Source: Anaerolineae bacterium (GTDB lineage Bacteria; Chloroflexota; Anaerolineae; B4-G1). From it: a DNA stretch of 60,083 bases. Below, in pieces: positions 1,870-41,224 of the stretch. Under the pieces are notes generated by a model. That model ran no database searches, was not told where the DNA came from, and saw nothing but the letters and a program-made list of their open reading frames with translations. The translations under genes were made by a program, and so were the position numbers. Position 1 is the first letter of the stretch, and every line of letters starts with the position of its first letter. The DNA lies in NCBI GenBank assembly GCA_034435075.1, contig DAOTYA010000045.1, positions 1 to 60,083 of the forward strand, read 5' to 3'.

Positions 1870-2010
1870 CCGGCTCGGGCCGCGCTCTCCAGACCACGCC
1901 TGACGCCGCCAGGCGTAGGACAACTGCTTGCAGTTGTCCTACAACTCTCCTTCCGGCTCGGGCCAGTCTCCAGACTGTGTCCGACGCCGCCACGACCGGT
2001 CACAGCCTGC
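1870..2010 (+). repeat. mosaic: two copies of the CCGGCTCGGGCC..GACGCCGCC module (SR2) flanking the palindrome GTAGGACAACTGC/GCAGTTGTCCTAC (SR3, 1915-1942)
   Basis: SR2 copies at 1870-1910 and 1953-2010. The same modules recur at 12342-12459, 45111-45222 (reverse) and 58053-58133. Confidence 0.85.
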
Positions 2011-2107
2011 TCTCGCTCAATCAAGGAGCGCATTGCGCTGCCCATCTACTGCTGCACCCACCGGGTGGTGTCGGCGCAGGCCGACATCTGGCGCGAAGTG
2101 CATTAGT

Positions 2108-2193
2108 GCCTATCCGGAAAACGTAACCGACGCATCCCTATGCGTCGGTATAAGCGGCATAGGGATGCCGCTTGTACGGTTTTTCGGATAGGC
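2108..2193 (+). repeat. CR1 86-nt three-way-junction palindromic repeat, copy A
   Basis: GCCTATCCGGAAAACGTAACCGACGCATCCCTATGCGTCGGTATAAGCGGCATAGGGATGCCGCTTGTACGGTTTTTCGGATAGGC. A 15-bp outer stem encloses two hairpins. Differs by 1 nt from copy F. Confidence 0.95.
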
Positions 2194-2198
2194 TCTAA

Positions 2199-7263: not shown

Positions 7264-8145
7264 ATGCTGACCGTAATCATCACTGCCTTTCAAGAGCCTG
7301 GGACTATAGGTGGGGCTATTGAGGCTTTCCTCCCTCAATTGCCTGAAGATGCCGAACTCATAGTTGTGTGCCCAGACCCGGAGACGGCTGCTGTAGTGGA
7401 GGGCTACGCCGCCCGTTACCCCTCCGTCAGGCACGTAGCTGATCCCCAGCGTGGTAAACCTTTCGCGCTAAACATCGGATTGAGGGCAGCACGAGGCGAG
7501 ATCGTGGTGCTGAGCGACGGGGATGTGGTTGTAGCGAAAGAGGCGCTAAGGCCACTCCTGGCTCCCTTCGAGGACCCGGAGGTGGGAGCCGTGAGCGGTC
7601 GCCCTGTGAGCATCAATCCGGCCAACACTATGTTGGGATATTGGTCGCACCTGCTTACCGAAAGCGCACACCAGATGCGTCTGTCACGCGATCAGGCCGG
7701 CCAGTTTCTCGTCTGCTCAGGTTACCTGTTTGCCTTTCGACGTTGCCTGGTCAACCAGGTGCCGGAAGATGCCCTGGCAGAGGATGCGGTGATCTCGCAC
7801 GCTATCGCCGCACGGGGGTATGTTATCCGTTACGCGCCAGAGGCACGGGTCTTTGTAAAATATCCCACTACTTACCGGGACTGGCTGCGTCAGAAGGTAC
7901 GCTCCGCCGGTGGGTATGCCCAAAGTTATGTGCGCCGCTCCACCTTTCGCATGCGCTCATTCCGGATGGAAGTGTTACACGGCACCCGTCTGGCATTGCG
8001 GTATCCGCGCAGCCCCCGTGAGTTCCTCTGGACGGCATTGCTATTTGTTGCGCGCCTTCATCTGTGGCTGCTTGTTTTTATCAATGTCGTCTTGCTGCGG
8101 CGCCGCCTGCCCGAGCTGTGGAAGAGGGCTGAGACAACGAAATGA
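7264..8145 (+). CDS. family 2 glycosyltransferase
   Basis: MLTVIITAFQEPGTIGGAIEAFL, the DGD motif (VVLSDGDVVV) and a C-terminal membrane helix. Confidence 0.85.
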   Translation: MLTVIITAFQEPGTIGGAIEAFLPQLPEDAELIVVCPDPETAAVVEGYAARYPSVRHVADPQRGKPFALNIGLRAARGEIVVLSDGDVVVAKEALRPLLAPFEDPEVGAVSGRPVSINPANTMLGYWSHLLTESAHQMRLSRDQAGQFLVCSGYLFAFRRCLVNQVPEDALAEDAVISHAIAARGYVIRYAPEARVFVKYPTTYRDWLRQKVRSAGGYAQSYVRRSTFRMRSFRMEVLHGTRLALRYPRSPREFLWTALLFVARLHLWLLVFINVVLLRRRLPELWKRAETTK

Positions 8146-8193
8146 AGCCTGGCTATCCGGGTCAGTATTTCAACAGGAGGTCAGGCGCTTAGT

Positions 8194-8279
8194 GCCTATC
8201 CGAAAAACGTAACCGACGCATCCCCATGCGTCGGTATAAGCGGCATAGGGATGCCGCTTGTACGGTTTTTCGGATAGGC
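8194..8279 (+). repeat. CR1 repeat, copy B
   Basis: Identical to copy E; loop CCCC instead of CCCT. Lies between convergent genes. Confidence 0.95.
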
Positions 8280-8291
8280 GCTTAATCTCTG

Positions 8292-9278
8292 TCAGTAATG
8301 GATGTTTACCGGCGTACCAACTGCGGCCCAATTGAAAAGCCACTCTGCCTCCGGCGTGGGCAGGTTGATGCAACCGTGGCTCATAGGATGGCCAAAATTG
8401 GAGTGCCAGTACGTGCCGTGTAGCGCGTAACCTCGATAGAAGTACATTGTATAGGGGACATTGGGCAGGTAGTATCCGGGGCCACTCATCGGCACAGAGG
8501 TGTACTTGGCGTAGATGTAATAACGCCCGGTCGGGGTTGGAGTGGACGGCAGGCCAGTGGAAACGAGCGTGCTGCGCACAGGCGTATTTCCCTGGTAAGC
8601 TGTCAGCATCTGAGCGCTGAGATCAACATCAATCCAGCGTTCGCCATCTGCTGCGGGCAAGGGAGTGGCACTACCGCCGGGGATGTGCAACACCTGTCCC
8701 ACATAGATCAGTGAGGGATTGCTGATATTATTGGCCCGGGCCAAAGCCCACATGGAGATGCCCGATCGCAGTGCAATCGCTGAAAGGGTATCGCCCCGTT
8801 GCACGACGTAACTACGCCCCAGCGCTGTTGCTGGCAGCGCTGCGCCGGTATACTCCGGCAGCACGAGCCGCTGCCCTGCGTAGATGAGGTTAGGATTGGT
8901 GATGTGGTTGATAGTGGCCAGTGCCTGCGCTGTGGTGCCATAACGCCTGGCGATACGGAACAGGTTCTCGCCCTTCTGGACAATATGGACTCCCGGGGTT
9001 GACCCGGAAGCTTCGCTGCTGCTCCCTGCTGTCGGTATCGTCAGCCGCTGCCCAACGTATATGTGGTTGACGTCGCTCAGATGATTGATTGTCTTTAGCG
9101 CCTCAACTGTGACCCCATAGCGCAACGCAATGCGGTAAAGGTTCTCCCCCGGCTGCACTATGTGGATGCCGCTCTGCGCGAAGACGACAATTGCATTCAG
9201 AGCCAGGGAGGCGATTATCAGTGCAGGTATGCTGACCAGCCTGCTCAGTTTCCTTGCTGTGGCGCTGCTTTGTGTCAC
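8292..9278 (-). CDS. LysM-repeat L,D-transpeptidase (YkuD family)
   Basis: Three LysM repeats ([18 protein letters not shown].., [18 protein letters not shown].., [18 protein letters not shown]..) plus the catalytic [20 protein letters not shown]. Confidence 0.92.
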
Positions 9279-11094: not shown

Positions 11095-11114
11095 CAGGTC
11101 AGGGACCTGTTTTT
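11095..11114 (+). terminator. short hairpin plus T5
   Basis: CAGGTC-agg-GACCTG followed by TTTTT, about 50 nt after the predicted transcription start. Confidence 0.3.
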
Positions 11115-11117
11115 AGA

Positions 11118-11203
11118 GCCTATCCGAAAAACCGTACAAGCGGCATCCCTATGCCGCTTATACCGACGCATAGGGATGCGTCGGTTACGTTTTTCGGATA
11201 GGC
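11118..11203 (-). repeat. CR1 repeat, copy C (inverted orientation)
   Basis: Its reverse complement is identical to copy F. Confidence 0.95.
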
Positions 11204-11290
11204 ACTTAGTCAAATTATTTTTCGCCTTCTGGGCAGTGTTGGCACAGAGGCGATCCGGTTGATCGCCCCAACCGGCGCGAAGCGTCCAAA

Positions 11291-11313
11291 GAGAGCGATT
11301 TCAATCGGCCTGA
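11291..11313 (+). repeat. SR4 motif
   Basis: GAGAGCGATTTCAATCGGCCTGA, preceded by GGCGCGAAG at 11274-11282. Confidence 0.85.
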
Positions 11314-11370: not shown

Positions 11371-11430
11371 AAGAGCCTGATTGTAACCGACGTATCCATA
11401 TGCGTCGGTATAAGCGGCATAGGGATGCCG
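11371..11430 (+). repeat. CR1 degenerate partial copy (both inner hairpins, no outer stem)
   Basis: AAGAGCCTGATTGTAACCGACGTATCCATATGCGTCGGTATAAGCGGCATAGGGATGCCG. Confidence 0.8.
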
Positions 11431-12322: not shown

Positions 12323-12479
12323 AATCATCGTAACTACCCAGTTCCCCGGCTCGGGCCGGTCTCCAGACCGCGCCCGACGTCGCCACGATGGGAAGTGGAT
12401 GCCGTAATCCGGCCAAATAAACGCCGGGTTGGGTGGCCCGGTCAGAGACCGGCCACAGCCTGGGTAGTTACAAATCATC
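12322..12479. mobile_element. 142-bp MITE with 12-bp TIRs and 8-bp target-site duplication
   Basis: TIRs GTAACTACCCAG (12330-12341) and CTGGGTAGTTAC (12460-12471). Flanking direct repeat AAATCATC (12322-12329 and 12472-12479). The interior carries the SR2 module and the GGCCGGTCTC/GAGACCGGCC inverted pair. Confidence 0.7.
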
Positions 12480-14097: not shown

Positions 14098-14155
14098 CCG
14101 CAGGACGCAGAACTCAAGACTCAGGACGCAGGGCTCAAGACTTCAGGACTTAGTT

Positions 14156-18162: not shown

Positions 18163-21100
18163 ATGGAAGAAACGGAAGGCAACTTGAGAGCCTCTTTCGG
18201 ATCGGACCGGCGTGGAGGTGCAAACATCAGCCCCTTTGAGCTGAGCGCTGATCTGAGGGCTTCGCTCAAGACAACACTGGATACCATTTTAACTACCACC
18301 CGCCAGCTCGTCTACTATGATGTAGCCGAGATCACGCTGTGGGATGAGGAACAGCGCTGTTGCGTAACTCAGGGATGGGGTGGTGACCGCGCTTACGCTA
18401 CGGAGGCAGGCGGTGTTTATCGCATTGACGAGGGCTACACCGGCTGGATCATCCGTCACCAGCGCTTCCTGTTGGTGCGTGATGTGGAGGCCAGGCGGGA
18501 CGTGCGCCCAAAATTGGACCTGCCCACGTATCCTTTCCAGTCTTACGTGGGCATCCCGCTCAAAAGCCAGGGCCGCTTCATTGGTACATTAGAATTGGCC
18601 TGCTATCACAAGGACGCCTGGTCGGAGCGTGACCTGGAGATCCTCCACGCCGTTGCCAGCCAGGCTGTGGTAGCCATTGAAAATGCTTATCTCTATGCAC
18701 AGACAAGGCGACATGCAGAGCAGCAGGCCGGCCTGGCCCGTATCGCTGCTCTGGCTGCCTCCACCCTCGATCTGGATGAGCTGCTTGAGCAGGTAATCGG
18801 AGAGACCCTCAGGCTGCTGGAAGCGGAAAGAGGCGCCCTCCTCCTCTACAACGAACAACGAAGTCGCCTGACGGTCCGTTACCTGACCCCTCCCGATGAC
18901 AAACGCACAGTGCCTTTATCATTTTGCCTTAAGCCCGAGCAATCGCTCCTGGCAAGGAGTGGCAGTTACTTATGCAACAATCCTGCTCAGGACCCGCATA
19001 TCACCGGGGTGTGCCGGGATTATATCCAGGCACTGGGCTTCCATAACTTCGTCGGAGTGGCATTGCGCCTGAAAGAGTCGCTTCTGGGTGAACTATACGT
19101 GGGAGATCGCAGGGGCGGATTTGGTAACCAGGAAGTCCAGTTGCTTCAGACAGTGACCGGTTATATAGCAACCGCCATCGAGAACGCCCATCTCTACGAT
19201 GAGATGCGCCGTCGGGTGTCCGAACTCAGTTCGCTGATGTCTGTCTCGGCTGCCGTCAGTTCCTCGCTGGACCTGGAGCGCGTTTTGCAGGCCATCGCCT
19301 CAGCTACAGTTGAGGTGATAGGATGCCAGCGGTCAGCGATCTTCGTGTTGGATGAAAGCGCGCAGGTGCTACGTCTGGCCATAACACAGGGACTGAGCCA
19401 GGAATATGCAGCCCGGTCGCAGGTACTTCCTCTGGAACCAGGTGGGCGTGCACACGCGGCGGTTACGGGGCAGCCACTGATAGTGCACGATGTGCAGGCT
19501 GATGATAGCCTGTTGGCCTATGCTCCGATGTCCGTCCAGGAGGGTTTCCGTGCCTTCGCCGACCTCCCTCTCAAGCGGGCTGACCGGGTTATTGGTATGC
19601 TTTCCGCCATGTTTGTCGAGCCTCACTACTTCTCCGCACGAGAAGTGGAATTGTTGACAGCTTTTGCCGATCAGGCGGCCATCGCCATAGAAAATGCTCG
19701 TCTGTACGCCCAGGCGGATGAGGAGTTGAGGCATCGAGAGGAAATATTGCGCAGACGCAACCGTGAACTGGCCACGCTCTACGAGGCTGCCAATACAATC
19801 AATTCCAGCCTCTCCCTGGATGATGTGCTCAACAGCGTGGCTTATCAGATGATGCGGTTGCTGAACTCAAAGGGATGCCTGGTCTCGCTGTGGGATCGCC
19901 AGCATAATGTACTTGAGCCTCTGGTAGCATACGGGGCAGCGCGGCCGGAGACGCCGGGTCAGGCCTGTTACCCGGACGTTTCATCACGCTCCGTATTGGA
20001 GACACGCCGCCCGCTGACCGTACGCAGAGATGCCCAGACCGTTTTGCTGCTACCCCTGATCACCAGAAATCAGGTGATTGGGATCGCTGAACTGATTGAT
20101 GGGGGCGAGGCCCGCGCTTACGCCCCAGAGGAGATCCGCCTCGCTGAGAGCCTGGCAGCGCAGGCGGCAGTTGCCATCGAGAACGCCCGTCTCTACGAGC
20201 AGGCTCAGCAGGAAATAGCCGAGCGCACGCGGGCGGAGGAAGCACTGCGGCGGCTTCACAACGTCAGCCGCGAGATCAATGCCACGCTTCATCTGGAAAG
20301 AATCCTACAACTTGTCCTTGAGGAGGCCACACATCTGAGCCAGGCCTCGCATGGCACCATCCTTCTCAGACACTCACCACAAGATGCACTCTACCTGGCG
20401 GTCTGCACAGGATATACGGAGGAAGATAAGGAGCGTCTGAACGCCCTCCTCCAGAAGCCAGAGGCCCATCCTGTCCTGCAAGCGATCTTGCGCTCCCCTG
20501 CTCCGCTGCTTGTCCCGGATACCTCTCTCCAGCCAGAGCGGTGTGGGTTCAGGCCAGAAACCCGCTCCCTGCTGATTGTACCGATATTCTATCAGGACGC
20601 ACTGGCGGGCATGATCTTCCTGGAGAGTGATGAGCAGGGAGCCTTCAACAGGGGCACGCTTGAGTTTGTGGAGGGGCTGGCCGCGCAGGCAGCCACGGCT
20701 ATTGGCAATGCTCAGCGATATCAGGAACAGTTGCAGCGTGGGGAGTTGCTGCGCCGTCGGGCGGAGAGACTGGCGGCTGTGTTGGAGATCAGCCGGGCAC
20801 TGCGTTCTGACCGCCCTCTGGAGAAGATCCTCGAGGAGATCGCATACGCCATTCAAGAGAGTGTGGGGTTCAATCTGGTGCTGATCGGCATTTTAGAAGG
20901 AGACCCTCCCTATCGCAGGCGTGTGGCGGCGGCTGGCGTTCCACTCGCCGAGTTCGAGCGGATGAAGCAGGTCCGTGAGCCCTGGTCAGCACTGGCCGAC
21001 CTGATGACATCCGAGTTCCGTGTCAGTCAGAGCTATTATATCCCTGCCGAGCATCAGGCGCGCTGGCGGGGGCGTATCAGCGTGTATGAAGCACCGCCAG

Positions 21101-23517
21101 AAGGGGAGACGGTCACGAGTGTTTCCCGCCAGCCTGGTCGCTGGCATCCCCACGACCTGCTGCTTGTCCCGCTGATTGGGCCGGGAGGTGACATACAGGG
21201 GCTGCTTTCGGTGGATCAGCCGATTGATGGCCGCGTGCCCGACCTGGAGACTATCGAGGCACTGGAGATCTTTGCCGCTCAGGCTGCCCTGGCCATCGAG
21301 AACGCTCGCCTGGTAGAGGCGCTGGAACGCCGCGCTGAGACGCTGGCCATGTTCAATGAGGTCTCGCGCTCTACCACAACCCATCTCGAGACCGCCAATC
21401 TCGACGACGTGCTCAACTCAGTGGTCAGAATGATCCTGCGGCCGGTCAAAAGCGATCTGAGCACGATCTTTCTGCTGGACCCCGGGAGCGGGAAATATCT
21501 ATGCAGGGCAGCGCATGGCATTACCGGTGGCGAACCATCGTCCACGCTGGAGGAGCTTATCGGTATGGTGGCCAGAAGCGGTATGCCTCTGGCGCTTGAG
21601 GACCTGGAGCGAGACGCCAGGACAGCAACGCCGGGTATGGATGGCATACGTTCGGCAGCCCTGGCTCCCCTCACGGTGAGCCATCAGGTGGTGGGCGTGC
21701 TGTGTGTGGGACGCAGAGCACCTGATCCCTTCTCTCCCGCCGAATTGGGCACACTCTCCGCGCTGGCCGACCAGGTGGCCGTGGCAGTGGCCAATATCAG
21801 ACTTTTCGATGAAGTACGCCGCTTCTCTCAGGAGCTGGAAAGGCGGGTGGAGGAACGCACCCAGGAGTTGGCCCAGGCATTACAGGAACTGCGGAAGGAG
21901 CGGGATCGGGTCGAGATATTGTACCGCATCACCGCGCAGTTGTCGGCCAGCCTTGACCTGGACTACGTGCTGACTCAGGCGCTTGGGCTGGTCGCCGGAG
22001 CGGTGGAGGCAGAACGCGCTTCCGTGCTGATGCTCGCTCACGATTCCGACCGCTTTATCTACCGCGCCTCCTATGGGAACGATACCCGGCTGCCTCCCGG
22101 AGGTCGCCTGACCAACTTTTCACGCGAGGAGGGGCTGGCCGGCTGGGTGGTCAGACATCGCCAGGCCGTCATCATCCCTGATATGCGTGAGGATCAGCGC
22201 TGGGTAAGTTCGTGGGAGGGCGAGCGTGACTACCGCTCGGTGCTGGCTGTGCCGCTTACCATCGGAGAACAGGTGCTGGGGGCACTCTTCCTGTTCCATT
22301 CACAGCCCGGCCATTTTCACGAAGAACACAAAATGTTGGTGGAGACGGCAGCCCTGCAGATGGCCAATGCGATCAATAATGCAGAACTTTACCGCCTCAT
22401 CTTCGATCAGGCCGAGCAACTGGGGAACATGCTCAAGACGCAGAAGGTAGAGGCGGCCAAGAGCCAGGCCATCCTGGAGGCCGTTGCCGATGGAGTGATT
22501 GTTGTGGATGCCAGCGGCAAGATCGTGCTCTTCAACGCAGCAGCGGAGCGCATCCTGGAACTGCCACGAGAAAAAGCGCTGGGCCGCATGAGCAGCGATA
22601 TGCTGGGCCTGTATGGCGGTCAGGCTCGCGAATGGATGGAGGCAGTGAACAGGTGGGCCACCCGGCCAGGCACCTATGACGCTGAGGAATACCTGGCGGC
22701 CAGAGTGGAGATCGGAGGGCGGATCGTCAGCGTCCATCTGGCACCGGTGCTGATGGGCGACGAGTTTCTCGGCACCGTCTCGGTCTTCCGCGATGTCACT
22801 GCTGAGGTGGAGGCCGAGCGGGCTAAGACGGAGTTCGTCTCCACGGTATCCCACGAGCTGCGCACCCCGATGACCTCGATTAAGGGCTACGTAAAACTGC
22901 TCCTGATGGAGATGGCAGGAGGGCTGACGGAGGGGCAACGCCATTTCCTCTCGATCATCAACGCGAACGTGGATCGCCTGACCAACCTGGTCAACGACCT
23001 GCTCGACATTTCACGTATCGAGAGCGGGCGTCTGGCTATCTCCCCGCGCCCGATCAAAGTGGACGAGGTGATCGAGCAGGTTGTCGCAGAAATGCACGCC
23101 CGCGCCACAGGCCGGGGGTTGACGCTCCACGCAGAGCTGCCCCCGGCGCTTCCCAGAGTGGTCGCAGACCCCGATCGGGTGGCTCAAATCCTGACCAACC
23201 TGATAGCCAATGCCTGCAACTACACCCCCAGCGGCGGGGAGGTGTGTGTCATGGCCCATGCGAACGGTGGAGAGGTGCGCGTTGCAGTGCGAGATACCGG
23301 CATCGGCATAGCTCCGGAGAACCTGGATAAGATTTTCGAGCGGTTCTTCCGTGCCGATGATGAGCTGGTACAGGAGGTCCCCGGTACCGGGCTGGGACTG
23401 GCCATCGTCCGTTCGCTGGTGGAGCTGCAGGGAGGTCGTATCTGGGTGGAGAGTAAACCAGGGGCAGGCAGCACCTTCACGTTCACACTTCCCGTTGCCG
23501 GGGAGAGCGGTGTTTGA
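18163..23517 (+). CDS. giant sensor histidine kinase: 8 tandem GAF domains, PAS, HisKA, HATPase_c
   Basis: Eight modules each close with A[IV]xNA.LY-type helices (AIENAYLY, AIENAHLY, AIENARLY x2, AIGNAQRY, AIENARLV, AVANIRLF, AINNAELY). PAS (ILEAVADGVIVVD), H-box SHELRTPMTSIKGY, N/G boxes (NLIANACNYT, DTGIGI, GTGLGLAIV). Confidence 0.93.
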   Translation: MEETEGNLRASFGSDRRGGANISPFELSADLRASLKTTLDTILTTTRQLVYYDVAEITLWDEEQRCCVTQGWGGDRAYATEAGGVYRIDEGYTGWIIRHQRFLLVRDVEARRDVRPKLDLPTYPFQSYVGIPLKSQGRFIGTLELACYHKDAWSERDLEILHAVASQAVVAIENAYLYAQTRRHAEQQAGLARIAALAASTLDLDELLEQVIGETLRLLEAERGALLLYNEQRSRLTVRYLTPPDDKRTVPLSFCLKPEQSLLARSGSYLCNNPAQDPHITGVCRDYIQALGFHNFVGVALRLKESLLGELYVGDRRGGFGNQEVQLLQTVTGYIATAIENAHLYDEMRRRVSELSSLMSVSAAVSSSLDLERVLQAIASATVEVIGCQRSAIFVLDESAQVLRLAITQGLSQEYAARSQVLPLEPGGRAHAAVTGQPLIVHDVQADDSLLAYAPMSVQEGFRAFADLPLKRADRVIGMLSAMFVEPHYFSAREVELLTAFADQAAIAIENARLYAQADEELRHREEILRRRNRELATLYEAANTINSSLSLDDVLNSVAYQMMRLLNSKGCLVSLWDRQHNVLEPLVAYGAARPETPGQACYPDVSSRSVLETRRPLTVRRDAQTVLLLPLITRNQVIGIAELIDGGEARAYAPEEIRLAESLAAQAAVAIENARLYEQAQQEIAERTRAEEALRRLHNVSREINATLHLERILQLVLEEATHLSQASHGTILLRHSPQDALYLAVCTGYTEEDKERLNALLQKPEAHPVLQAILRSPAPLLVPDTSLQPERCGFRPETRSLLIVPIFYQDALAGMIFLESDEQGAFNRGTLEFVEGLAAQAATAIGNAQRYQEQLQRGELLRRRAERLAAVLEISRALRSDRPLEKILEEIAYAIQESVGFNLVLIGILEGDPPYRRRVAAAGVPLAEFERMKQVREPWSALADLMTSEFRVSQSYYIPAEHQARWRGRISVYEAPPEGETVTSVSRQPGRWHPHDLLLVPLIGPGGDIQGLLSVDQPIDGRVPDLETIEALEIFAAQAALAIENARLVEALERRAETLAMFNEVSRSTTTHLETANLDDVLNSVVRMILRPVKSDLSTIFLLDPGSGKYLCRAAHGITGGEPSSTLEELIGMVARSGMPLALEDLERDARTATPGMDGIRSAALAPLTVSHQVVGVLCVGRRAPDPFSPAELGTLSALADQVAVAVANIRLFDEVRRFSQELERRVEERTQELAQALQELRKERDRVEILYRITAQLSASLDLDYVLTQALGLVAGAVEAERASVLMLAHDSDRFIYRASYGNDTRLPPGGRLTNFSREEGLAGWVVRHRQAVIIPDMREDQRWVSSWEGERDYRSVLAVPLTIGEQVLGALFLFHSQPGHFHEEHKMLVETAALQMANAINNAELYRLIFDQAEQLGNMLKTQKVEAAKSQAILEAVADGVIVVDASGKIVLFNAAAERILELPREKALGRMSSDMLGLYGGQAREWMEAVNRWATRPGTYDAEEYLAARVEIGGRIVSVHLAPVLMGDEFLGTVSVFRDVTAEVEAERAKTEFVSTVSHELRTPMTSIKGYVKLLLMEMAGGLTEGQRHFLSIINANVDRLTNLVNDLLDISRIESGRLAISPRPIKVDEVIEQVVAEMHARATGRGLTLHAELPPALPRVVADPDRVAQILTNLIANACNYTPSGGEVCVMAHANGGEVRVAVRDTGIGIAPENLDKIFERFFRADDELVQEVPGTGLGLAIVRSLVELQGGRIWVESKPGAGSTFTFTLPVAGESGV

Positions 23518-24824: not shown

Positions 24825-24834
24825 TATTATCAGA

Positions 24835-25020
24835 GCCTATCCGGAAATCGTTTTCGGACAGGTTCTTGTTCAGGCGCTTACTGGAGGGGTGAGGAATGCC
24901 TCGCCCGTACGCCCTTCCTGGGCCTGCAGCCGGTGGTCGGCCTTCTTCACCGACCAGGGGCGTCGGCGCAGGCCGGTGCCCGGCGCGAAGCGCCCAGGGT
25001 GACGATTTCAATCGGCCTGA
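24835..25020 (+). repeat. repeat mosaic: CR1 mini-copy (24835-24862), a shared ~100-nt spacer module and GGCGCGAAG..SR4 (24982-25020)
   Basis: Collinear with the reverse complement of 58161-58300 (for example GAGGAATGCCTCGCCCGTACGCCCTT vs GAGGCATTCCCTGCCCGTACACCCTT). Confidence 0.75.
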
Positions 25021-28222: not shown

Positions 28223-28294
28223 TTAGAGCCTATCCGAAAAACCGTACAAACGGCATCCCTATGCCGCTTATACAGACGCATCCCTATGCGTCGG
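28223..28294 (-). repeat. CR1 truncated/chimeric copy D
   Basis: Left outer arm plus both hairpins. The second hairpin loop is CCCT where AGGG is expected for this orientation. The right outer arm is replaced by the SR5 module. Confidence 0.85.
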
Positions 28295-28297
28295 TAT

Positions 28298-28348
28298 ACA
28301 ACCGCACTTCCCCGTTTTGAAGGGTCAGAGGTGACTGTCACCTTGGGC
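28298..28348 (+). repeat. SR5 module ACAACCGCACTTCCCCGTTTTGAAGGGTCAGAGGTGACTGTCACCTTGGGC
   Basis: Second copy at 40107-40157. Contains the GGTGAC-T-GTCACC palindrome. Confidence 0.85.
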
Positions 28349-33877: not shown

Positions 33878-33903
33878 CTCGCCGGGTAACTACCTGACTG
33901 TAT

Positions 33904-33929
33904 CCTCCCGCAGGTCAGCCTGCGGGAGG
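33904..33929. other. intercistronic 11-bp-stem hairpin between rfbF and rfbG
   Basis: CCTCCCGCAGG-tcag-CCTGCGGGAGG. Confidence 0.5.
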
Positions 33930-33959
33930 GCGGCAGTTAATCGTTAGCGTGTGTTCAGA

Positions 33960-34003
33960 GCCTATCCGAAAAACCGCGCGTCGGTTACGTTTTTCGGATA
34001 GGC
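33960..34003. repeat. CR1 mini-copy (outer stem only)
   Basis: GCCTATCCGAAAAACCGCGCGTCGGTTACGTTTTTCGGATAGGC, starting 3 nt after the rfbF stop. Confidence 0.85.
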
Positions 34004-34005
34004 AC

Positions 34006-34794
34006 TCACTCCCATACCTTCCATGGCGCGCTCTGACGCCACAGATGGTCAAGCTCCAGCGCTTCTTTGAAAGTGTCCATTGAACGCCAGAATCCGGTGT
34101 GACGGTACATCATCAGTTGTCCCTCGGCTGCCAGGCGCGGGAGGGCTTCTCTTTCCAGGTGGACGTCTCCGCCGTTCAGATATTTCAGGACACCGCGCTC
34201 GAACACCATAAAGCCAGCATTGATCCAATGTTCCAGTTGCGGTTTCTGAATAAAACCGGTCACCTGCCCTGACTCATCGGCCTGGAGCAGCCCGTACTGA
34301 AGGCGTGGACGCACACCGGTTACGGTGGCCAGACGGCCATGCTGCCTGTGGAAGGCCAGCAGTGCATCCAGGTTGATGTCACCCACACCGTCACCGTAGG
34401 TGACAAAGAAGGTGGTGGTGTCAATATAGCGGGCCACGCGATAGATGCGGGTGCCCTTCTCCGTATCGAGTCCGGTATCTGCCAGTGTGATCTCCCAGTT
34501 CTCCCGGTTATCAGTGTGGTAGGTGATGCCGGAGGATTCTCCCAGCCTGATGGTGAAATCACCACTCATCGCTTCGTATTCCAGAAAGTAGCGCTTCAGC
34601 GCCTCGGCCTGATGGCCCAGGGTGAGGATGAAACGCGTGTGTCCATAGGCAGCGTAAATCTTCATCACGTGCCAGAGGATAGGACGCCCCCCTACTTCGA
34701 CCAGCTCTTTCTTGGTCGGCGTATCGCCCTGCATGCGGGTGCCCTGTCCGCCGCACAGAATGACCACGGGAAGTGGGCTTTTTTCGTGCTCCAT
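34006..34794 (-). CDS. rfbF: glucose-1-phosphate cytidylyltransferase
   Basis: PVVILCGGQGTRM..KELVEVGGRPILWHVMKIY..; about 260 aa. Confidence 0.9.
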   Translation of the reverse strand: MEHEKSPLPVVILCGGQGTRMQGDTPTKKELVEVGGRPILWHVMKIYAAYGHTRFILTLGHQAEALKRYFLEYEAMSGDFTIRLGESSGITYHTDNRENWEITLADTGLDTEKGTRIYRVARYIDTTTFFVTYGDGVGDINLDALLAFHRQHGRLATVTGVRPRLQYGLLQADESGQVTGFIQKPQLEHWINAGFMVFERGVLKYLNGGDVHLEREALPRLAAEGQLMMYRHTGFWRSMDTFKEALELDHLWRQSAPWKVWE

Positions 34795-35936: not shown

Positions 35937-38900
35937 CTACCGGCGTGCGGAGGAGCGGTGGCGCGTCGGCGGGACCGCTTTCTGGTTTACCAGCCGCTGA
36001 AATTCGTAAAGCTTGTTCAACGCCTCCAACGGGGTCATAGAGGTGATGTCGAGGGCCCGGATTTCCTCGATGACCGGATGCTCCTGCACAAAGAGCAATG
36101 GCTGGTAGGGCTGTTGGGCAGGCGTGCCAGGGCGAAACTCGCCGCTCTCCAGACGGGCCAGCAACTCCTCCGCCCGGTTGATGACCGGACGAGGCACTCC
36201 TGCCAGTTGTGCCACGTGTATGCCATAAGAACGGTCGGCACCACCGGGCACAACCTTGTGCAGGAAGATCACGCGGTTCCCCTCCTCAATCACCGCCAGA
36301 TTGTAGTTACGCACAGCCGGAAGCCGGTCGGCTATCTCCGTCAGCTCATGGTAATGGGTGGCGAAAAGCGTGCGTGCCCGTCGCTCCGGGTGATTGTGCA
36401 GATATTCCACCACGGCCCAGGCGATGGAGAGGCCATCGTAGGTGCTGGTGCCGCGCCCGATCTCATCAAGGATAAGCAAACTGCGCGGCGTGGCATGATT
36501 TAGGATGTTGGCCGTCTCTACCATCTCAACCATAAAGGTGGATTGACCCGAGGCAACCTCATCCTGTGCTCCGATGCGCGTGAAGATGCGGTCTACAATG
36601 CCTATATGCGCCCGCTCAGCCGGCACGAAGCTCCCTATCTGCGCCATCAACACGATGAGAGCATTCTGGCGCAGAAACACCGAGTTGTGGCTGACAAACC
36701 CGGCCGCCACGTAGGCGTTCCCATCGGGCACGCTCAAGTCGCACACCTGTCGGACGCCCGCCGGTTCAACTGAGATAACCGTGTCATAAAACAGCCCGTC
36801 GCTCTCCAGGGAGAGGACATCGCGCTCGTGAGGGTCAACATGGAGCAGCCCTTTGCATACCTGTTTTCCGGGCGATCGGAAGCCGATCCTGTCGTAAAAG
36901 GCCAGGGCATCCCTGCCATACATGGTAAGCTGACAGGAGGGACGCCCGGAGACCTTGCCGATGTGCAGAGAACTGATGACGCCGTGATTAAGCAGCAACA
37001 ACTGCACCTGACGCACCAACCGCGGTGAGGGGGCAGAGAAGGTGATGTGGCCATCGTGTGCGTCTGCGCTGGCGGAAGCATCGAAGAGACCCTGCAAGAA
37101 AGCAACTGTTATCTCCCTGGGAGATTGGAGAATCACTTTGGGTATCTCTTTCTCGCAGGAACGAACGTATCCCAACCCCAGCCCCGCCATAAACCGACGG
37201 ACGTCTGCACTGGCAACACTCAAGGTCCAGATGCTGCCACCGCGTGTGGACTCTGGAAGCGGCTGACACCCGAAGCACAGTTGAGCGACTCTGCAAAATT
37301 CCCGGGCTGTAAATTCATCCTGTAGTGTGATGACAATGCGCCTGCGATACTTCAGATTCCCACTGCCGGTAAGCAGGCCGGTGAGGTATGCCAGCTCAGG
37401 TGTTAACTTATCAGGATACCGGCAACCATCTCCGGCTGGTACCTCAATGTCCAGTGTCAGTTTGCCACCCCACAGCCCGGTATCGGGCTTGAGGGCCGCA
37501 AAATCCCCCAGTGCCAGCTCACTCAGCGGCACCCACCCTGTTGTGCCATCCGGCCTGCGCACCCACAGACGATGTTCAGGTGTTCCGATCAGCTCATATC
37601 CCCTGTTCGTCGTTACCCGCAAAACAGGTGCACAGCCACCGTCATAGAAATGGGATGTCGTCGTATGTCCGTTCTTTCCGCACACGCCCGTCTGGAGGGT
37701 CGTGAAGGTGTGTGCCTGAGCCTGCGCGGGCCGCAGGTCTCCAATGCGCAGCAAACCGTGTTCGGTGCAGAGCAGGGTGTCCTCGTCAACACATTTGCCG
37801 GCCATGTTCGGCCCGGTAATGATCAGGATACGCTCTTCCTGGTTCAGGCGCAGATCGTTGGGTACGAAAGGTTCATCCTGAAGCGTCTGCTCTACCACGG
37901 GATGCCGGCCGGCAATAATTTCGAGCGTATCATCATCGCCGATGGTGGGGCGCACATAGCGGTTGCGCACAGCGACCTCCGCCAGAGCCGCTGCCACGTC
38001 TATGGATGCCAGGGTGCGCGCTGTATGGAGCAGTCTCTTTCCCTGGGCACTGATCTGCCGGCAGAGGTCATGAAACAGGCGTGTTTCGACCTCAACCTGC
38101 CGTTCCTCCGCATGCAGGATCAGGGATTCGTACTCCTTCAGCTCGGGTGTGATAAACCGCTCAGCGTTGACCAGCGTCTGTTTACGGATGTAATCGGCAG
38201 GCACGGAGTCCAGATTCGCTTTGGTTACCTCCAGATAGTAACCAAACACCTTGTTGTAGCCAACCTTGAGGCTTTTGATACCTGTGCGCTCACGCTCTCG
38301 TCTCTCCAGCCCGGCGATCCATTGCCTGGCTTCCTGGGAGGCGGTGACGATGCCATCCAATTCGGCAGAGAAGCCGGGGCGGATCACGCCGCCGGCGGAG
38401 AGGCCGGCCGGTGGGTCATCCACAATAGCCGAGGCGATCAGCCCGGCAACGTCACTGCACGGGTCGAGTTCAGAGGCCTGGGGCAGGAAGCCGGCCAGGG
38501 TCTCCACCAGCCCGGGCAACGCTTCAAGAGCCCTGCGGATGCCGGGCAGGTCACGGGGTGTGGCGATCCCGGTCAGCACCCGGTTGGTCAAACGCTCCAG
38601 GTCGGGCATATTTTTGAGCAGCTCGCGCGTGCGTCCCCGGACGACGGCGTCATTGTAAAAGGCCTCCACTTCATCGAGGCGTCGCTCCAGCTCAACCCGG
38701 TCCAGCAGGGGCTGGGCAAGCCGCGTACGCAGCAGCCGTCCCCCCATCGGTGTGAGCGTCAGATCGAGGACGCCCAACAGCGATCCGCGCGTCTTGCGCT
38801 CGCGGATCGTCTCGGTCAGCTCAAGGTTGCGGCGCGTGGCCGGGTCGAGGGTCATAAAGCGAGCGGTGGAGTAGGTGCTGAGAGTTGTGATGTTGGCCAG

Positions 38901-39653
38901 CAATCCCTTGCCGGTGTCGCGCAGGTAGTGGATGATGGCCCCTGCAGCCTGCAGCGCCAGCGGTTTACCCGCGCATCCGAAGCCGTCCAGTGTGGCCACG
39001 CCGAAGTGGTCCAGCAGTGTCTGACGGGCCAGCCCCAGCTCAAAACGATAGGCCGGCAGCGGAGTCAGGTGCAGGTTGGGAAACAATGTGCGCAGTCCGG
39101 CAAGCGCGGGTAGCTCATCGGCTGACTCGGACACCAGACACTCTCTTGGCTGGAGGCGTGCCAGCTCCTCGACGACTTCGTCCGTACTCAATTGAGTGGT
39201 GGCGAACTCGCCGGTGGTGATGTCTGCATGGGCCAGGCCGGCCTGTTCCCCTTCGACCACCAGCGCGGCCAGGTAGTTGGGCCGCCGTTCGTCCAGGAGC
39301 GCCGGTTCAACGACCGTACCGGGGGTCACCACACGCGTGACCTCGCGAGCAACCAGCCCGGCGCCGGAGACCTCGCCCACCTGTTCGGCGATAGCAACGC
39401 GGTAACCTTTTTCGATCAGGCGCGCGATATAGCTCTCGACGGCGTGATACGGAACCCCGGCCATAGGTACACGCTGGGTCTTGGACACCGGCCGCGAGGT
39501 GAGTACCAGGTCCAGTTCGCGAGCAGCGATCTCCGCATCCTTATCGAAGGTCTCGTAAAAGTCACCCAGTCGGAAGAATACGATGGCATCCGGATGCCGG
39601 GCTTTGATCTGCAGATACTGCTGGCGAACGGGAGTTACGTCAGACATGGCCAC
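35937..39653 (-). CDS. mutS: DNA mismatch repair protein MutS, interrupted by an intein
   Basis: Mismatch-binding N-terminus (TPVRQQYLQIKARHPDAIVFFRLGDFYETF), clamp/core region and ATPase (TGPNMAGK | intein | SVFLRQ.., DEIGRGTSTYDG, TLFATHYHEL). 1238 aa versus roughly 870 for typical bacterial MutS. Confidence 0.95.
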   Translation of the reverse strand: MAMSDVTPVRQQYLQIKARHPDAIVFFRLGDFYETFDKDAEIAARELDLVLTSRPVSKTQRVPMAGVPYHAVESYIARLIEKGYRVAIAEQVGEVSGAGLVAREVTRVVTPGTVVEPALLDERRPNYLAALVVEGEQAGLAHADITTGEFATTQLSTDEVVEELARLQPRECLVSESADELPALAGLRTLFPNLHLTPLPAYRFELGLARQTLLDHFGVATLDGFGCAGKPLALQAAGAIIHYLRDTGKGLLANITTLSTYSTARFMTLDPATRRNLELTETIRERKTRGSLLGVLDLTLTPMGGRLLRTRLAQPLLDRVELERRLDEVEAFYNDAVVRGRTRELLKNMPDLERLTNRVLTGIATPRDLPGIRRALEALPGLVETLAGFLPQASELDPCSDVAGLIASAIVDDPPAGLSAGGVIRPGFSAELDGIVTASQEARQWIAGLERRERERTGIKSLKVGYNKVFGYYLEVTKANLDSVPADYIRKQTLVNAERFITPELKEYESLILHAEERQVEVETRLFHDLCRQISAQGKRLLHTARTLASIDVAAALAEVAVRNRYVRPTIGDDDTLEIIAGRHPVVEQTLQDEPFVPNDLRLNQEERILIITGPNMAGKCVDEDTLLCTEHGLLRIGDLRPAQAQAHTFTTLQTGVCGKNGHTTTSHFYDGGCAPVLRVTTNRGYELIGTPEHRLWVRRPDGTTGWVPLSELALGDFAALKPDTGLWGGKLTLDIEVPAGDGCRYPDKLTPELAYLTGLLTGSGNLKYRRRIVITLQDEFTAREFCRVAQLCFGCQPLPESTRGGSIWTLSVASADVRRFMAGLGLGYVRSCEKEIPKVILQSPREITVAFLQGLFDASASADAHDGHITFSAPSPRLVRQVQLLLLNHGVISSLHIGKVSGRPSCQLTMYGRDALAFYDRIGFRSPGKQVCKGLLHVDPHERDVLSLESDGLFYDTVISVEPAGVRQVCDLSVPDGNAYVAAGFVSHNSVFLRQNALIVLMAQIGSFVPAERAHIGIVDRIFTRIGAQDEVASGQSTFMVEMVETANILNHATPRSLLILDEIGRGTSTYDGLSIAWAVVEYLHNHPERRARTLFATHYHELTEIADRLPAVRNYNLAVIEEGNRVIFLHKVVPGGADRSYGIHVAQLAGVPRPVINRAEELLARLESGEFRPGTPAQQPYQPLLFVQEHPVIEEIRALDITSMTPLEALNKLYEFQRLVNQKAVPPTRHRSSARR
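36684..37793 (-). mobile_element. 370-aa class-1 intein with LAGLIDADG-type homing-endonuclease domain, inserted in the MutS Walker A motif
   Basis: Cys1 (TGT, 37793-37791) follows GPNMAGK. Block B is GTPEHRLWV. LAGLIDADG-like helices are LAYLTGLLTGSGNL and VAFLQGLFDASASA. Blocks F/G are VCDLSVPDGNAYVAAGFVSHN (Asn, 36686-36684), followed by Ser+1. Confidence 0.88.
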
Positions 39654-40088: not shown

Positions 40089-40106
40089 TTGACGCTCCTT
40101 TTTACT

Positions 40107-40169
40107 ACAACCGCACTTCCTCGTTTTGAAGGGTCAGAGGTTACTATCACCTTGGGCGTCCGCGGTTGT
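40107..40169 (+). repeat. SR5 module, second copy, here closed by ACAACCGC/GCGGTTGT
   Basis: ACAACCGCACTTCCTCGTTTTGAAGGGTCAGAGGTTACTATCACCTTGGGCGTCCGCGGTTGT. Confidence 0.85.
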
Positions 40170-40410
40170 AGAACTATCCAAAGCAGGACAGCTTTGCCAG
40201 GCTGTCCAGGCAGACCGGAAAGGCCGCAGGCAGTTTTTCGGACAGGTGCTTAATGTGGCAGGCCCCCGGGTCAACCGCGTAACTCCCGCGTATTATATCC
40301 TGTTCCGGTCAACAGGCAATGCATCTCACCTGATAACTTTTTCGACCTGTGCATTATCTGCCTCTTCTGAATTACGACCGGTGCGGTTGGATGGAATTCA
40401 CCGCAAAGCA

Positions 40411-40592: not shown

Positions 40593-41042
40593 ATGCCCGA
40601 ACATCACACTGGTGTGGCACCCAGTAGCCACCGGCATCGCAGACAGCTTATTTTGCTCCTGACTCTGCCCGTGCCCGTGATTGGGGTCGCCAATCTGATC
40701 AGGCTGGGGATGGCTCTACGCTACTCCGCCCTGCTGCTCGACCTGCCCATGACCGTTTCATGGGCCTATCTGGCAATGATGGGGGGAGTGTGGGGGGTAG
40801 TTTTCATCATCTGCACGGCCGGGTTGGTAAGTTTCCGCCCGTGGGGGCGCCGGATGACCCTGGCTACGGTGACACTCTACGAAGCTCACGTCTGGTTCAA
40901 CCACCTTGTTTTCGATGCCTCTGACTATGCTCGCCTGACCATACCCCGCGACCTTACGCTGAGCCTGATGCTTTTGCTTATCATCTGGGGTACACTTAAC
41001 ATTCCTGCTCTACGCGCGGAGTTCGTGGCCAAAGCCGACTGA
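40593..41042 (+). CDS. membrane protein, unknown function
   Basis: Start chosen at MPEHHTG. Four hydrophobic helices. Confidence 0.55.
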   Translation: MPEHHTGVAPSSHRHRRQLILLLTLPVPVIGVANLIRLGMALRYSALLLDLPMTVSWAYLAMMGGVWGVVFIICTAGLVSFRPWGRRMTLATVTLYEAHVWFNHLVFDASDYARLTIPRDLTLSLMLLLIIWGTLNIPALRAEFVAKAD

Positions 41043-41073
41043 TCGGAGGGTGAGATGCGCCGGCAGTTTAGTG

Positions 41074-41159: not shown

Positions 41160-41224
41160 CTTAGTCAGAAGTCCGTAGTCCAAAGTCTGTAATCCGAGGT
41201 CCGCAGGACTGATCGGAGGGTAAG

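What the first reader, a model, noticed from the sequence alone, without database searches (positions are those of the whole stretch)
8194..8279. CR1: an 86-nt near-identical three-way-junction palindrome scattered through intergenic DNA
- **Seen, full copies:** there are six, at 2108-2193, 8194-8279, 11118-11203 (inverted), 41074-41159 and 58308-58393, plus a truncated one at 28223-28294. The complete copies differ from each other by at most 1-2 nt.
- **Seen, reduced forms:** at 11371-11430 (both inner hairpins only), 33960-34003 and 24835-24862 (outer stem only), and 40233-40252 (a half site).
- **Seen, structure:** the outer stem is GCCTATCCGAAAAAC/GTTTTTCGGATAGGC. It encloses two hairpins, CCGACGCAT-CCCT-ATGCGTCGG and GCGGCAT-AGGG-ATGCCGC.
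- **Seen, context:** every copy is intergenic, most begin within 100 nt of a stop codon, and both orientations occur. The ends read TTAG.GCC...GGC.CT(T)A(A/G).
- **Inference:** this is a REP/MITE-like element that either spread recently or is under strong selection. It probably acts as a terminator, mRNA stabiliser or protein-binding site.
Basis: seen in the sequence. Interest (0 to 1): 0.65.

Follow-up and report, generated by a model that had tools for sequence, protein, structure and literature searches.

The report
High-copy IS5-family MITE in Anaerolineae
The 86-nt "CR1" palindrome is a small non-coding jumping-gene remnant (a MITE) that borrows the end sequences of an IS5-family insertion sequence and has spread to hundreds of intergenic sites in a hot-spring Chloroflexi (Anaerolineae) genome; this is a known kind of element in a little-studied host.

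Summary
There are five near-identical full copies (0-2 differences in 86 nt) and five damaged ones, all intergenic. They fold into a three-way junction (-55.6 kcal/mol, z = -8).

The true unit is 90 nt with 17-nt terminal inverted repeats, G(A/T)GCCTATCCGAAAAAC. It is flanked by a duplicated TNA trinucleotide.

- **Precise insertion:** a relative about 90% identical in DNA has an empty site, GGGAG-TAA-ACACACG. The window has GGGAG-TGA-[48 nt]-TGA-ACACACG, exactly at a gene's stop codon.
- **Same ends, other interiors:** the ends recur around quite different interiors in other Chloroflexi MAGs.
- **Parent IS family:** the first 15 nt, GAGCCTATCCGAAAA, are identical to both ends of about 0.9-kb IS5-family insertion sequences. 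These occur in Anaerolineae MAGs and in the same hot-spring samples that hold the relative.
- **Copy number:** metagenome depth suggests hundreds of copies per genome.

So CR1 is a MITE moved in trans by an IS5-family transposase. It is not a REP/RAYT element and not a catalogued RNA.

In either transcription direction the last hairpin is followed by T5, so it looks terminator-like. That function is untested.

It is a new member of a known kind, of modest interest.

The parts
8192..8281 (+). Full CR1 copy (90 nt). It has 17-nt TIRs and two inner hairpins. Flanked by TTA (8189-8191) and TTA (8282-8284). Lies between the convergent GT2 gene (7264-8145) and the LysM/YkuD gene (8292-9278, - strand).
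   Evidence: absent between the same gene pair in L103, where the gap is only 18 nt
2106..2195 (+). Full CR1 copy flanked by TTA (2103-2105) and TAA (2196-2198). It interrupts a copy of another repeat family. Uninterrupted copies of that family lie at about 11274-11313 and 24959-25020.
   Evidence: contigs of relative X4 skip 2101-2203 (section 5c)
11116..11205 (-). Full CR1 copy in inverted orientation, flanked by TTA/TTA (11113-11115, 11206-11208).
   Evidence: absent at this place in L102
41071..41160 (+). Full CR1 copy flanked by TTA/TTA. Followed by a heptamer array (NNAGTCC)n at 41163-41205.
   Evidence: the whole block is absent in L091/L094
58306..58395 (+). Full CR1 copy flanked by TTA/TTA.
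33958..34005 (-). Internally deleted CR1 (48 nt, both TIRs intact), flanked by TCA/TCA (33955-33957, 34006-34008). The right duplicate is the TGA stop codon of the NTP-transferase gene 34006-34794 (- strand).
   Evidence: clean empty site in L091/L098/L101; this deleted form is single-copy in X1 (joint 11134>11178, depth 93.5 against a baseline of 98)
28226..28294 (-). Truncated CR1 with one TIR and both hairpins; the other TIR is lost. TTA at 28223-28225. Lies 15 nt after the GH38 gene's stop codon.
   Evidence: (D10)
24833..24864 (.). 32-nt remnant made of two degenerate TIRs back to back.
40233..40252 (.). Old relic of one TIR (GTTTTTCGGACAGGTGC + TTA). The orthologous place in L091 keeps a longer decayed CR1: TIR plus a GGCGGCATCCCTGGCCGC hairpin.
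11371..11430 (+). Decayed copy. Both inner hairpins are kept and the TIRs are damaged (GAGCCT..GATT).
   Evidence: D2

Best explanation
[quoted passage not shown] It is a 90-nt non-coding element whose only functional parts for movement are its 17-nt terminal inverted repeats, G(A/T)GCCTATCCGAAAAAC.

**Shown.**
- These repeats match both ends of about 0.9-kb IS5-family insertion sequences. Their transposase has DUF4096 + DDE_Tnp_1 domains, fits NCBIfam transpos_IS5_3, and is read in two frames.
- Those ISs occur in Anaerolineae MAGs and in the same hot-spring samples as a close relative of this genome.
- CR1 inserts at TNA and duplicates it. In a minority of cases the flanks are what a 2-bp TA duplication inside TTAA would give.
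- It survives only in intergenic DNA. Three copies sit exactly on stop codons, which the duplication regenerates.
- It has amplified to roughly one copy per 10 kb.

**Inferred.**
- The transposase of such an IS binds the repeats and cuts and pastes CR1 in trans.
- The three-way-junction fold comes from the palindromic interior. That interior looks like a one-hairpin ancestor with an internal inverted duplication.
- Because A5/T5 tracts of the TIRs flank the hairpins, a transcribed copy may act as a weak bidirectional terminator or a 3' stabiliser. This is a possible side effect, not the reason the element exists.
For: 1. **Conserved ends, variable interior.** The same termini enclose unrelated interiors in several MAGs.
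   - Chloroflexi MAG GL140_3: L002, L003, L005
   - an uncultured MAG: L008, two forms
   - Thermoflexales MAG H21_290: L009, a one-hairpin form and a diverged two-hairpin form
   - Anaerolineae MAG H23_313: L004 and L010, carrying CR1 itself

2. **Target-site duplications.** Of 16 complete small elements and 3 ISs, 14 have identical flanking trinucleotides (TTA, TAA, TCA, TGA). The rare TCA/TCA and TGA/TGA cases are among them.

3. **Orthologous empty site.** L091, L098 and L101 read GGGAG-T(A/G)A-ACA.... The window reads GGGAG-TGA-[48 nt]-TGA-ACACACG.

4. **Empty site among repeat copies in the window.** The 2108 copy splits another repeat whose intact copies read ...GCGTCCAAAGAGAGCGATTTC.

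5. **Parent IS family.**
   - A TIR-only blastn query hit the end of an 886-bp IS in a Kovacikia plasmid.
   - Its transposase scores 257 bits on NF033580 (transpos_IS5_3), with Pfam DUF4096 + DDE_Tnp_1.
   - Homologues found by protein search alone sit in 893-904-bp elements. These are L105 and L106 (Anaerolineae MAGs) and L107-L111.
   - Wherever an end lies within the DNA held, it reads TNA|GAGCCTATCCGAAAAATCG... or ...GACTTTTCGGATAGGCTC|TNA. L108 is cut off before its right end.
   - L108 and L111 come from JGI samples 3300005839 and 3300027515. The syntenic relatives L094 and L091 come from the same samples.

6. **Amplification.** Depth inside CR1 compared with single-copy flanks:
   - X4: about 93,000 against about 200
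   - X1: about 817,000 against 98
   - 1,175 X1 contigs carry the element

7. **Both old and recent activity.** A decayed relic is shared at orthologous positions by the window and L091. Four copies in the same 20 kb are window-specific.
Against: - No transposase gene lies in the 60-kb window or in loci L001-L103. A partner IS in this very genome is therefore not shown.
- Only the first 15-16 nt match the IS ends. Nothing internal matches, so descent from that IS is inferred, not shown.
- Only one orthologous empty site is clean. The other sites differ in more than the element.
- Five of 19 flank pairs are TTA against TAA. Because flanks are mostly TWA, about half would match by chance. The case rests on the TCA and TGA pairs and on the empty sites.
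- The X1 depth ratio (about 8,000) is too high for one genome. It must include other carriers, so copy number per genome is approximate.
Confidence: 0.9

Rival explanations
1. CR1 is primarily a functional RNA or DNA signal kept by selection. Candidates are a bidirectional intrinsic terminator, an mRNA 3' stabiliser or a protein-binding site. On this view its mobility is secondary or historical.
For: - The fold is very stable on both strands.
- In either direction the last inner hairpin (10-13 bp) is followed by T5 of the TIR, and all three full copies scanned are called terminator-like.
- Most copies lie within 0-60 nt of a stop codon.
- Unrelated sub-families with the same ends also have palindromic interiors.
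- CR1 is abundant in contigs of metatranscriptome runs X7 and X10.
Against: - The A5/T5 tracts are dictated by the IS ends, so they need no functional explanation.
- No compensatory changes were seen among CR1 copies. Variants are wobble or unpaired.
- Orientation relative to neighbouring genes is mixed.
- Copies are absent from orthologous sites in a relative 90% identical in DNA, with no replacement hairpin at the 33960 site.
- Multi-kb contigs from the RNA runs carry CR1 internally (section 8). If they derive from RNA, this means read-through.
- Position near stop codons follows from TNA targeting and from purifying selection against genic insertions.
Confidence: 0.15
2. CR1 is a REP/BIME-type element spread by a REP-associated tyrosine transposase (RAYT), acting on single-stranded hairpins.
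For: It is an intergenic, highly repeated, strongly palindromic sequence. Several other small repeat families cluster with it, as in BIMEs.
Against: - It has terminal inverted repeats identical to the ends of a DDE-transposase IS, plus flanking duplications. REP/RAYT systems lack both (established knowledge; REP described as 20-40 bp with GTAG/CGTC heads in PMC3733652).
- At 90 nt it is larger than a REP.
- No Y1 transposase is in the window.
Confidence: 0.02
3. CR1 is moved by a different transposase family, for example IS630/Tc1-mariner, and the resemblance to IS5-family ends is coincidental.
For: Five flank pairs (TTA...TAA) fit a 2-bp TA duplication, the IS630 hallmark. No partner IS is shown in this genome.
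Against: - TA duplication cannot explain the TCA/TCA, TGA/TGA, TTA/TTA or TAA/TAA flanks.
- The 15-nt end sequence was found at both ends of IS5-family elements that were retrieved by protein homology alone, in the same phylum and the same samples.
Confidence: 0.03

Closest known systems
IS5-family-derived bacterial MITEs that share only their TIRs with the IS (e.g. Neisseria ATR with ISNme1; Porphyromonas gingivalis BrickBuilt/MITE239 with ISPg1/3/4/9; PMC4596501)
   Same: - Small and non-coding.
- Only the TIRs match a full-length IS5-family IS, and the termini begin GAG.
- Filled and empty sites show a short duplication.
- Intergenic.
   Different: - Different TIR sequence and different host phylum (Chloroflexota).
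- Regular 3-nt TNA duplication.
- Copy number of hundreds, against the 10-20 per genome quoted for bacteria in PMC4596501.
- The interior forms two hairpins.
Short (about 0.9 kb) IS5-family insertion sequences of the IS427/IS1031 type
   Same: - End sequence GAGCCTATCCGAAAA.
- Flanking TNA.
- Size 886-904 bp.
- DUF4096 + DDE_Tnp_1 transposase read in two frames.
- From my memory of ISfinder's table: the IS1031 group is 850-950 bp with a 3-bp duplication and ends GAG; the IS427 group has a 2-4 bp duplication and a frameshifted transposase.
   Different: - CR1 has no coding capacity and shares nothing with these ISs beyond 15-16 terminal bases.
- The sub-group (IS427 or IS1031) was not resolved here. 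The ISfinder figures were not verified against a paper.
Tourist-type MITEs and PIF/Harbinger transposons of eukaryotes
   Same: The transposase superfamily is related to IS5. Canonical Harbinger elements make 3-bp duplications (PMC12730594). Short TIR elements of this kind amplify to high copy near genes.
   Different: These are eukaryotic, with a two-protein transposition system. There is no sequence relation to CR1.
Correia elements (Neisseria), ERIC, RUP and similar hairpin-forming bacterial MITEs (reviewed in PMC3184786)
   Same: - About 100-nt TIR elements that fold into long stem-loops when transcribed.
- Both orientations occur, and they are intergenic.
- Some act on transcript ends or stability (own knowledge).
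   Different: - Correia duplicates TA and has no identified parent IS.
- CR1 has an identified IS family, a TNA target and a three-way-junction fold.
- No RNA-level effect has been shown for CR1.
REP/BIME elements with RAYT transposases (PMC3733652)
   Same: High-copy extragenic palindromes, clustered with other repeats.
   Different: REPs are 20-40 bp with GTAG/CGTC heads. They have no TIRs or TSDs and use a tyrosine (Y1) transposase. CR1 fails these features.

Membership tests
[quoted passage not shown] | Short (50-1000 bp) with no coding capacity | tested here: met
   90 nt. No ORF is possible. The definition is as in PMC4596501.
MITE | Terminal inverted repeats | tested here: met
   17-nt TIRs, G(A/T)GCCTATCCGAAAAAC. 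They are conserved across sub-families whose interiors differ.
MITE | Target-site duplication, shown by filled and empty sites | tested here: met
   - 14 of 19 flank pairs are identical TNA.
- Clean orthologous empty site at 33955-34008 against L091, L098 and L101.
- Empty site among repeat copies within the window at 2103-2198.
MITE | Multiple dispersed, near-identical copies | tested here: met
   - Five full copies with 0-2 differences.
- 15 TIR hits against 0.07 expected.
- Depth ratio of about 460 in X4.
MITE | TIRs shared with an autonomous IS that could supply transposase | tested here: met
   GAGCCTATCCGAAAA lies at the ends of the IS5-family elements L104-L111. L108 shows only its left end, because the contig stops there. 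Some of these come from the same samples as the relative. Presence in this very genome was not shown.
MITE | Mobilisation in trans by that transposase | not testable with these tools
   This needs a transposition or binding assay.
IS5 family (parent IS) | DDE transposase of the IS5 type | tested here: met
   NF033580 transpos_IS5_3 at 257 bits (cut-off 110). Pfam DUF4096, DDE_Tnp_1 and DDE_Tnp_1_2.
IS5 family, IS427 or IS1031 sub-group | Length 0.8-1.0 kb, 2-4 bp duplication, ends GAG (ISfinder table, from memory) | tested here: inconclusive
   The lengths (886-904 bp), the TNA flanks, the GAG ends and the two-frame transposase all fit. The sub-group criteria were not verified in a paper and no phylogeny was made.
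REP/RAYT | 20-40 bp palindrome with a GTAG/CGTC head, no TIRs or TSDs, and an associated Y1 transposase | tested here: not met
   The element is 90 nt and has TIRs and TSDs. No such transposase is in the window.
IS630/Tc1-type MITE | TA duplication | tested here: not met
   TCA/TCA, TGA/TGA, TTA/TTA and TAA/TAA flanks cannot be TA duplications.
Intrinsic (rho-independent) terminator | GC-rich hairpin directly followed by a U tract, with 3' ends mapped there | tested here: inconclusive
   A consensus match (10-13 bp stem, then GGTTTTT or TACGTTTTT) occurs in both directions. The U tract is only five bases long and is interrupted. No 3'-end data are available.
Any Rfam family | Score at or above the family's gathering threshold | tested here: not met
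   The only hit in the window is a tRNA. At E<=1 there are only microRNA hairpin models, far below threshold.

The most novel reading that the evidence does not exclude
CR1-type MITEs may act as mobile, orientation-independent transcription terminators or insulators.
- The IS-derived A5/T5 tracts bracket stable hairpins.
- The TNA target delivers the element onto or just after stop codons, and the duplication regenerates the stop codon.
- If so, amplification would have rewired 3' ends across hundreds of operons in thermophilic Anaerolineae, and the hairpin interiors of several sub-families would be selected for this.
Probability: 0.15. Interest if true: 0.55.

Novelty: new member of a known kind. 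Interest (0 to 1): 0.3.

Why it matters
- **Explains the repeat.** The most conspicuous repeat in this window, and the reason assemblies of these hot-spring Anaerolineae break at intergenic regions, has a plain mechanism.
- **Unusual scale.** Hundreds of copies of one MITE is high for a bacterium. The family is patchy within Chloroflexota.
- **Possible transfer.** The same IS ends occur in a cyanobacterial plasmid. That is compatible with transfer between phyla.
- **Practical uses.** The copies are insertion-polymorphism markers between closely related populations. They are also likely substrates for recombination.
- **Open question.** Their hairpin-plus-T5 design makes them candidates for altering 3' ends of many genes. 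It is not a new kind of system.

Tried and rejected
- **Rfam.** The gathering-threshold scan of the window and the E-value scan of one copy found no family.
- **Full-text search.** Searching papers for the element's sequence strings gave only chance primer matches. No paper on MITEs in Chloroflexi or Thermoflexus was found.
- **blastn of a copy plus flanks against plasmids.** No match.
- **Metagenome scan with EtfA.** It returned 80 loci, about 850 kb, from relatives at 52-81% identity. None carried CR1 or its TIR. Synteny was lost, so they were useless as empty sites.
- **Y-x2-R-x3-E-x6-K motif scan for IS5 transposases.** It found nothing and would have missed the real ones.
- **Exact look-ups of window proteins.** Two failed.
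- **Viral-contig scan.** It gave 0 hits.
- **Laying metagenome contigs on the IS locus.** Presence of the IS in run X1 could not be checked.
- **A 1.1-kb insertion in L091 relative to the window.** It turned out to be an ordinary gene, not an IS.
- **Bacteroidales and Spirochaetales hits of the genome scan (L001, L006, L007).** They share only the inner 12-mer and lack the GAGCC ends. They are unrelated.
- **Covariation analysis.** Not informative. Copies are too similar and the variants are wobble or unpaired.
- **ISfinder sub-group figures.** The papers held did not give them.

Full report
**1. Observation**

The sequence is as described.
- The 15-nt outer arm GCCTATCCGAAAAAC (up to 2 mismatches) occurs 15 times in the window, against 0.07 expected from dinucleotide shuffles.
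- There are five full 86-nt copies: 2108, 8194, 11118 (inverted), 41073 and 58308.
- The listed damaged forms are all present.
- Full copies differ by 0-2 nt.
- Both strands fold into the proposed three-way junction: RNA -55.6 and -54.0 kcal/mol with z = -8.0 and -9.4, and DNA -39.4 kcal/mol with z = -10.2.
- Flanking ORFs are ordinary housekeeping genes with Pfam support, and every copy is intergenic. Examples are the glycosyltransferase, LysM/YkuD, NUDIX-GNAT, GH38, NTP-transferase, epimerase, SBP and SDR genes.

**2. Real boundaries**

Aligning copies with their flanks shows the unit is 90 nt, G(A/T)GCC...GGC(A/T/G)C. It is bracketed by a trinucleotide that is usually the same on both sides.
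- TTA/TTA at 8194, 11118, 41073 and 58308.
- TCA/TCA at 33960.

**3. Relatives elsewhere**

- CR1 itself is in Anaerolineae MAG H23_313 (L004, L010; flanks TAA/TAA).
- The same termini enclose different interiors in several other MAGs.
  - Chloroflexi MAG GL140_3: L002, L003 and L005.
  - An uncultured MAG: L008, two simple long hairpins.
  - Thermoflexales MAG H21_290: L009.
    - One form has a single hairpin, flanked TGA/TGA.
    - The other is a diverged two-hairpin homologue of CR1.

- Conserved ends with a free interior is the signature of a transposase substrate, not of a structured RNA.
- Three hits in Bacteroidales and Spirochaetales share only the inner 12-mer and are unrelated.
- About 850 kb from 80 other relatives (EtfA 52-81% identical) has no copy, so the family is patchy.

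**4. Insertion shown by empty sites**

A homologue of the NTP-transferase (P0001, 97% identical) led to contigs L091-L100. These are syntenic with window 24-44 kb at about 90% DNA identity.
- At the end of that gene the relatives read GGGAG-TAA-ACACACG, and L101 reads ...GGCGG-TGA-ACAAGC.
- The window reads GGGAG-TGA-[48-nt element]-TGA-ACACACG.
- This is a precise insertion with a 3-nt duplication, and the duplicated triplet is the gene's stop codon.
- The 48-nt form is single-copy in the source metagenome (depth 93.5 against a baseline of 98). It is therefore a deletion derivative.

A second empty site lies among repeat copies inside the window.
- The 2108 copy splits another repeat family.
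- Intact copies of that family run straight through the insertion point at about 11274-11313 and 24959-25020.
- There the flanks are TTA...TAA, which is what a 2-bp TA duplication inside TTAA gives.

The 41073, 11118, 8194 and 2108 copies are also missing from relatives, but those intergenic regions differ in more than the element.

The half-site at 40233 is an old relic. L091 keeps a longer decayed CR1 at the orthologous place. The family therefore predates the roughly 10% divergence and stayed active afterwards.

**5. Flank tally**

- Over 16 complete small elements and 3 ISs, 14 pairs are identical (TTA, TAA, TCA, TGA).
- Five pairs are TTA against TAA.
- Two of those five are the tandem pair in L002. 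Taken together as TAA-[a-TTA-b]-TAA, the pair has matching outer flanks.
- Because flanks are mostly TWA, chance matching would be about half. The weight lies on the TCA and TGA pairs and on the empty sites.
- In three of 16 elements the duplicated triplet is exactly the stop codon of an ORF of at least 100 codons: window 33960, L008a and L009b.

**6. The partner IS**

- A 43-nt query made only of the two TIRs was run against plasmids at E<=10. It gave an 18-nt exact hit in Kovacikia minuta plasmid pA.
- On its own that hit is at chance level. However, it lies at the end of an 886-bp element whose other end carries the inverted match.
- The (degenerate) gene of that element is an IS5-family transposase. 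It scores 257 bits on NF033580 transpos_IS5_3 and has Pfam DUF4096 + DDE_Tnp_1.
- A protein search with it found 'IS5 family transposase [Anaerolineae bacterium]' entries.
- Their loci were fetched by protein identity only.
  - They are elements of about 0.9 kb (893 and 904 bp in L105 and L106).
  - The ends read TNA|GAGCCTATCCGAAAAATCG... and ...GACTTTTCGGATAGGCTC|TNA.
  - L105 is flanked TTA/TTA and L107 TAA/TAA.
  - L108 is cut off before its right end.

- The first 15-16 nt equal CR1's ends, and nothing further inside matches.
- L108 and L111 come from the same JGI samples (3300005839, 3300027515) as the syntenic relatives L094 and L091.
- The transposase is read in two frames.
- No transposase is in the window or in L001-L103.

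**7. Abundance and host**

- Run X1, a hot-springs metagenome, holds 99% of the window's 31-mers.
- Other hot-spring and mat runs hold relatives.
- The nearest named proteins are from Anaerolineae MAGs.

| Run | Single-copy depth | Peak depth inside CR1 | Contigs laid on CR1 |
|---|---|---|---|
| X1 | about 98 | about 817,000 | 1,175 |
| X4 | about 200 | about 93,000 | 204 |

- The X4 ratio (about 460) agrees with the window's density of one copy per 10-12 kb.
- The X1 ratio is too high for one genome and must include other carriers.
- Assemblies of the relatives break at these intergenic regions.

**8. Function beyond mobility**

- In either direction the last inner hairpin is followed by the T5 of the TIR, and all three full copies in the 20 kb scanned are called terminator-like.
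- The A5/T5 tracts are inherited from the IS ends, so this may be incidental.
- CR1 is abundant in contigs of metatranscriptome runs. Some multi-kb contigs carry it internally.
- Contig data cannot separate RNA from DNA carry-over, and they cannot map 3' ends.
- No compensatory changes were seen among CR1 copies.
- The one-hairpin L009a form differs from CR1's hairpin by a paired C-G to T-A change.
- The terminator or stabiliser reading therefore stays open and untested.

**9. Comparison and verdict**

- CR1 meets every testable defining feature of a MITE.
- It works like the IS5-family-derived bacterial MITEs that share only their TIRs with an IS (PMC4596501).
- More distantly, it resembles Tourist/Harbinger elements with 3-bp duplications (PMC12730594).
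- It fails the REP/RAYT and IS630 tests and matches no Rfam family.
- No paper with this sequence, or on MITEs in Anaerolineae, was found.
- It is a new member of a known kind. The notable points are its copy number, its TNA and stop-codon targeting, and a parent IS family shared with a cyanobacterial plasmid.

Noticed in passing
window 2067-2101 + 2197-2221; 11274-11313; 24959-25020; also L102 3340-3421: A second intergenic repeat family (...GGCGCGAAGCG.CCAAAGAGAGCGATTTCAATCGGCCTGA). One copy is split by the CR1 at 2108. It is also present in the relative L102, at the place where the window has the CR1 at 8194.
   Followed up: partly
window 1914-1942, 48896-48924, 58105-58133; and 1953-1995, 12346-12388, 58053-58095: Two more small repeat families. 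One is the palindrome TGTAGGACAACTGCGAGCAGTTGTCCTAC. The other is a 43-nt unit, CCGGCTCGGGCCGGTCTCCAGAC.... They cluster with CR1 in the same intergenic regions. The 12346 family also shows high metagenome depth (about 3,950 at 12421 in X1).
   Followed up: no
window 28297-28348 and 40106-40157: A 52-nt repeat (94% identical) lies next to the truncated CR1 at 28223 and about 80 nt from the CR1 relic at 40233. It may be another mobile or mosaic unit.
   Followed up: no
window 41163-41205 and 14099-14149; also seen in X4, X7 and X10 contigs next to CR1: Heptamer tandem arrays (NNAGTCC)n lie directly beside CR1 copies. They recall the short heptamer repeats of cyanobacteria (own knowledge).
   Followed up: partly
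window about 33890-33950 (- strand), downstream of the 33960 copy: An extra block of about 60 nt with the hairpin CCCTCCCGCAGG-CTGA-CCTGCGGGAGG is present in the window and absent from L091/L098. It is a further small insertion of another kind.
   Followed up: no
window 41036-41059 and 41207-41230: A 24-nt direct duplication (GCGCATCT[T/C]ACCCTCCGATCAGTC on the - strand, including the start of the SBP gene) brackets the block that holds CR1 and the heptamer array. L091 has one copy only.
   Followed up: partly
X1 contigs laid on window 11115-11206 (section 5c); L002 7728-7876: Tandem head-to-tail pairs of elements share a single TNA. The summed depth in X1 is about 1,030, about ten such junctions. 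The L002 pair has matching outer flanks (TAA...TAA), as if the dimer moved as one unit.
   Followed up: partly
window 2199 joined to 11208 on opposite strands (section 5): Contigs in X4 and X3 (at single-copy depth) and in a minority of X1 (37 of about 100) join the right flanks of the oppositely oriented copies at 2108 and 11118. This could be a 9-kb inversion by recombination between copies. It could also be an artefact of the adjacent repeat family.
   Followed up: no
window 35937-39653 (- strand): A MutS homologue of 1,238 aa. Its orthologue in L091 carries an intein with a LAGLIDADG homing-endonuclease domain (Pfam Intein_splicing, LAGLIDADG_3).
   Followed up: no
window 18163-23517: A 1,784-aa ORF with internal repeats of about 500 nt (19147-21311). 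A neighbouring-type protein in L103 consists of many GAF domains.
   Followed up: no
L091 575-1693, compared with window 43361-43363: The relative has an extra 1.1-kb segment encoding a 256-aa membrane-anchored protein with no Pfam hit. The window lacks it.
   Followed up: partly
L104 (Kovacikia minuta plasmid pA, 1157783-1158668): An IS5-family IS with almost the same ends as the Chloroflexi elements sits in a cyanobacterial plasmid. That copy is degenerate, with a frame break and an in-frame stop. The IS lineage may have crossed phyla.
   Followed up: partly
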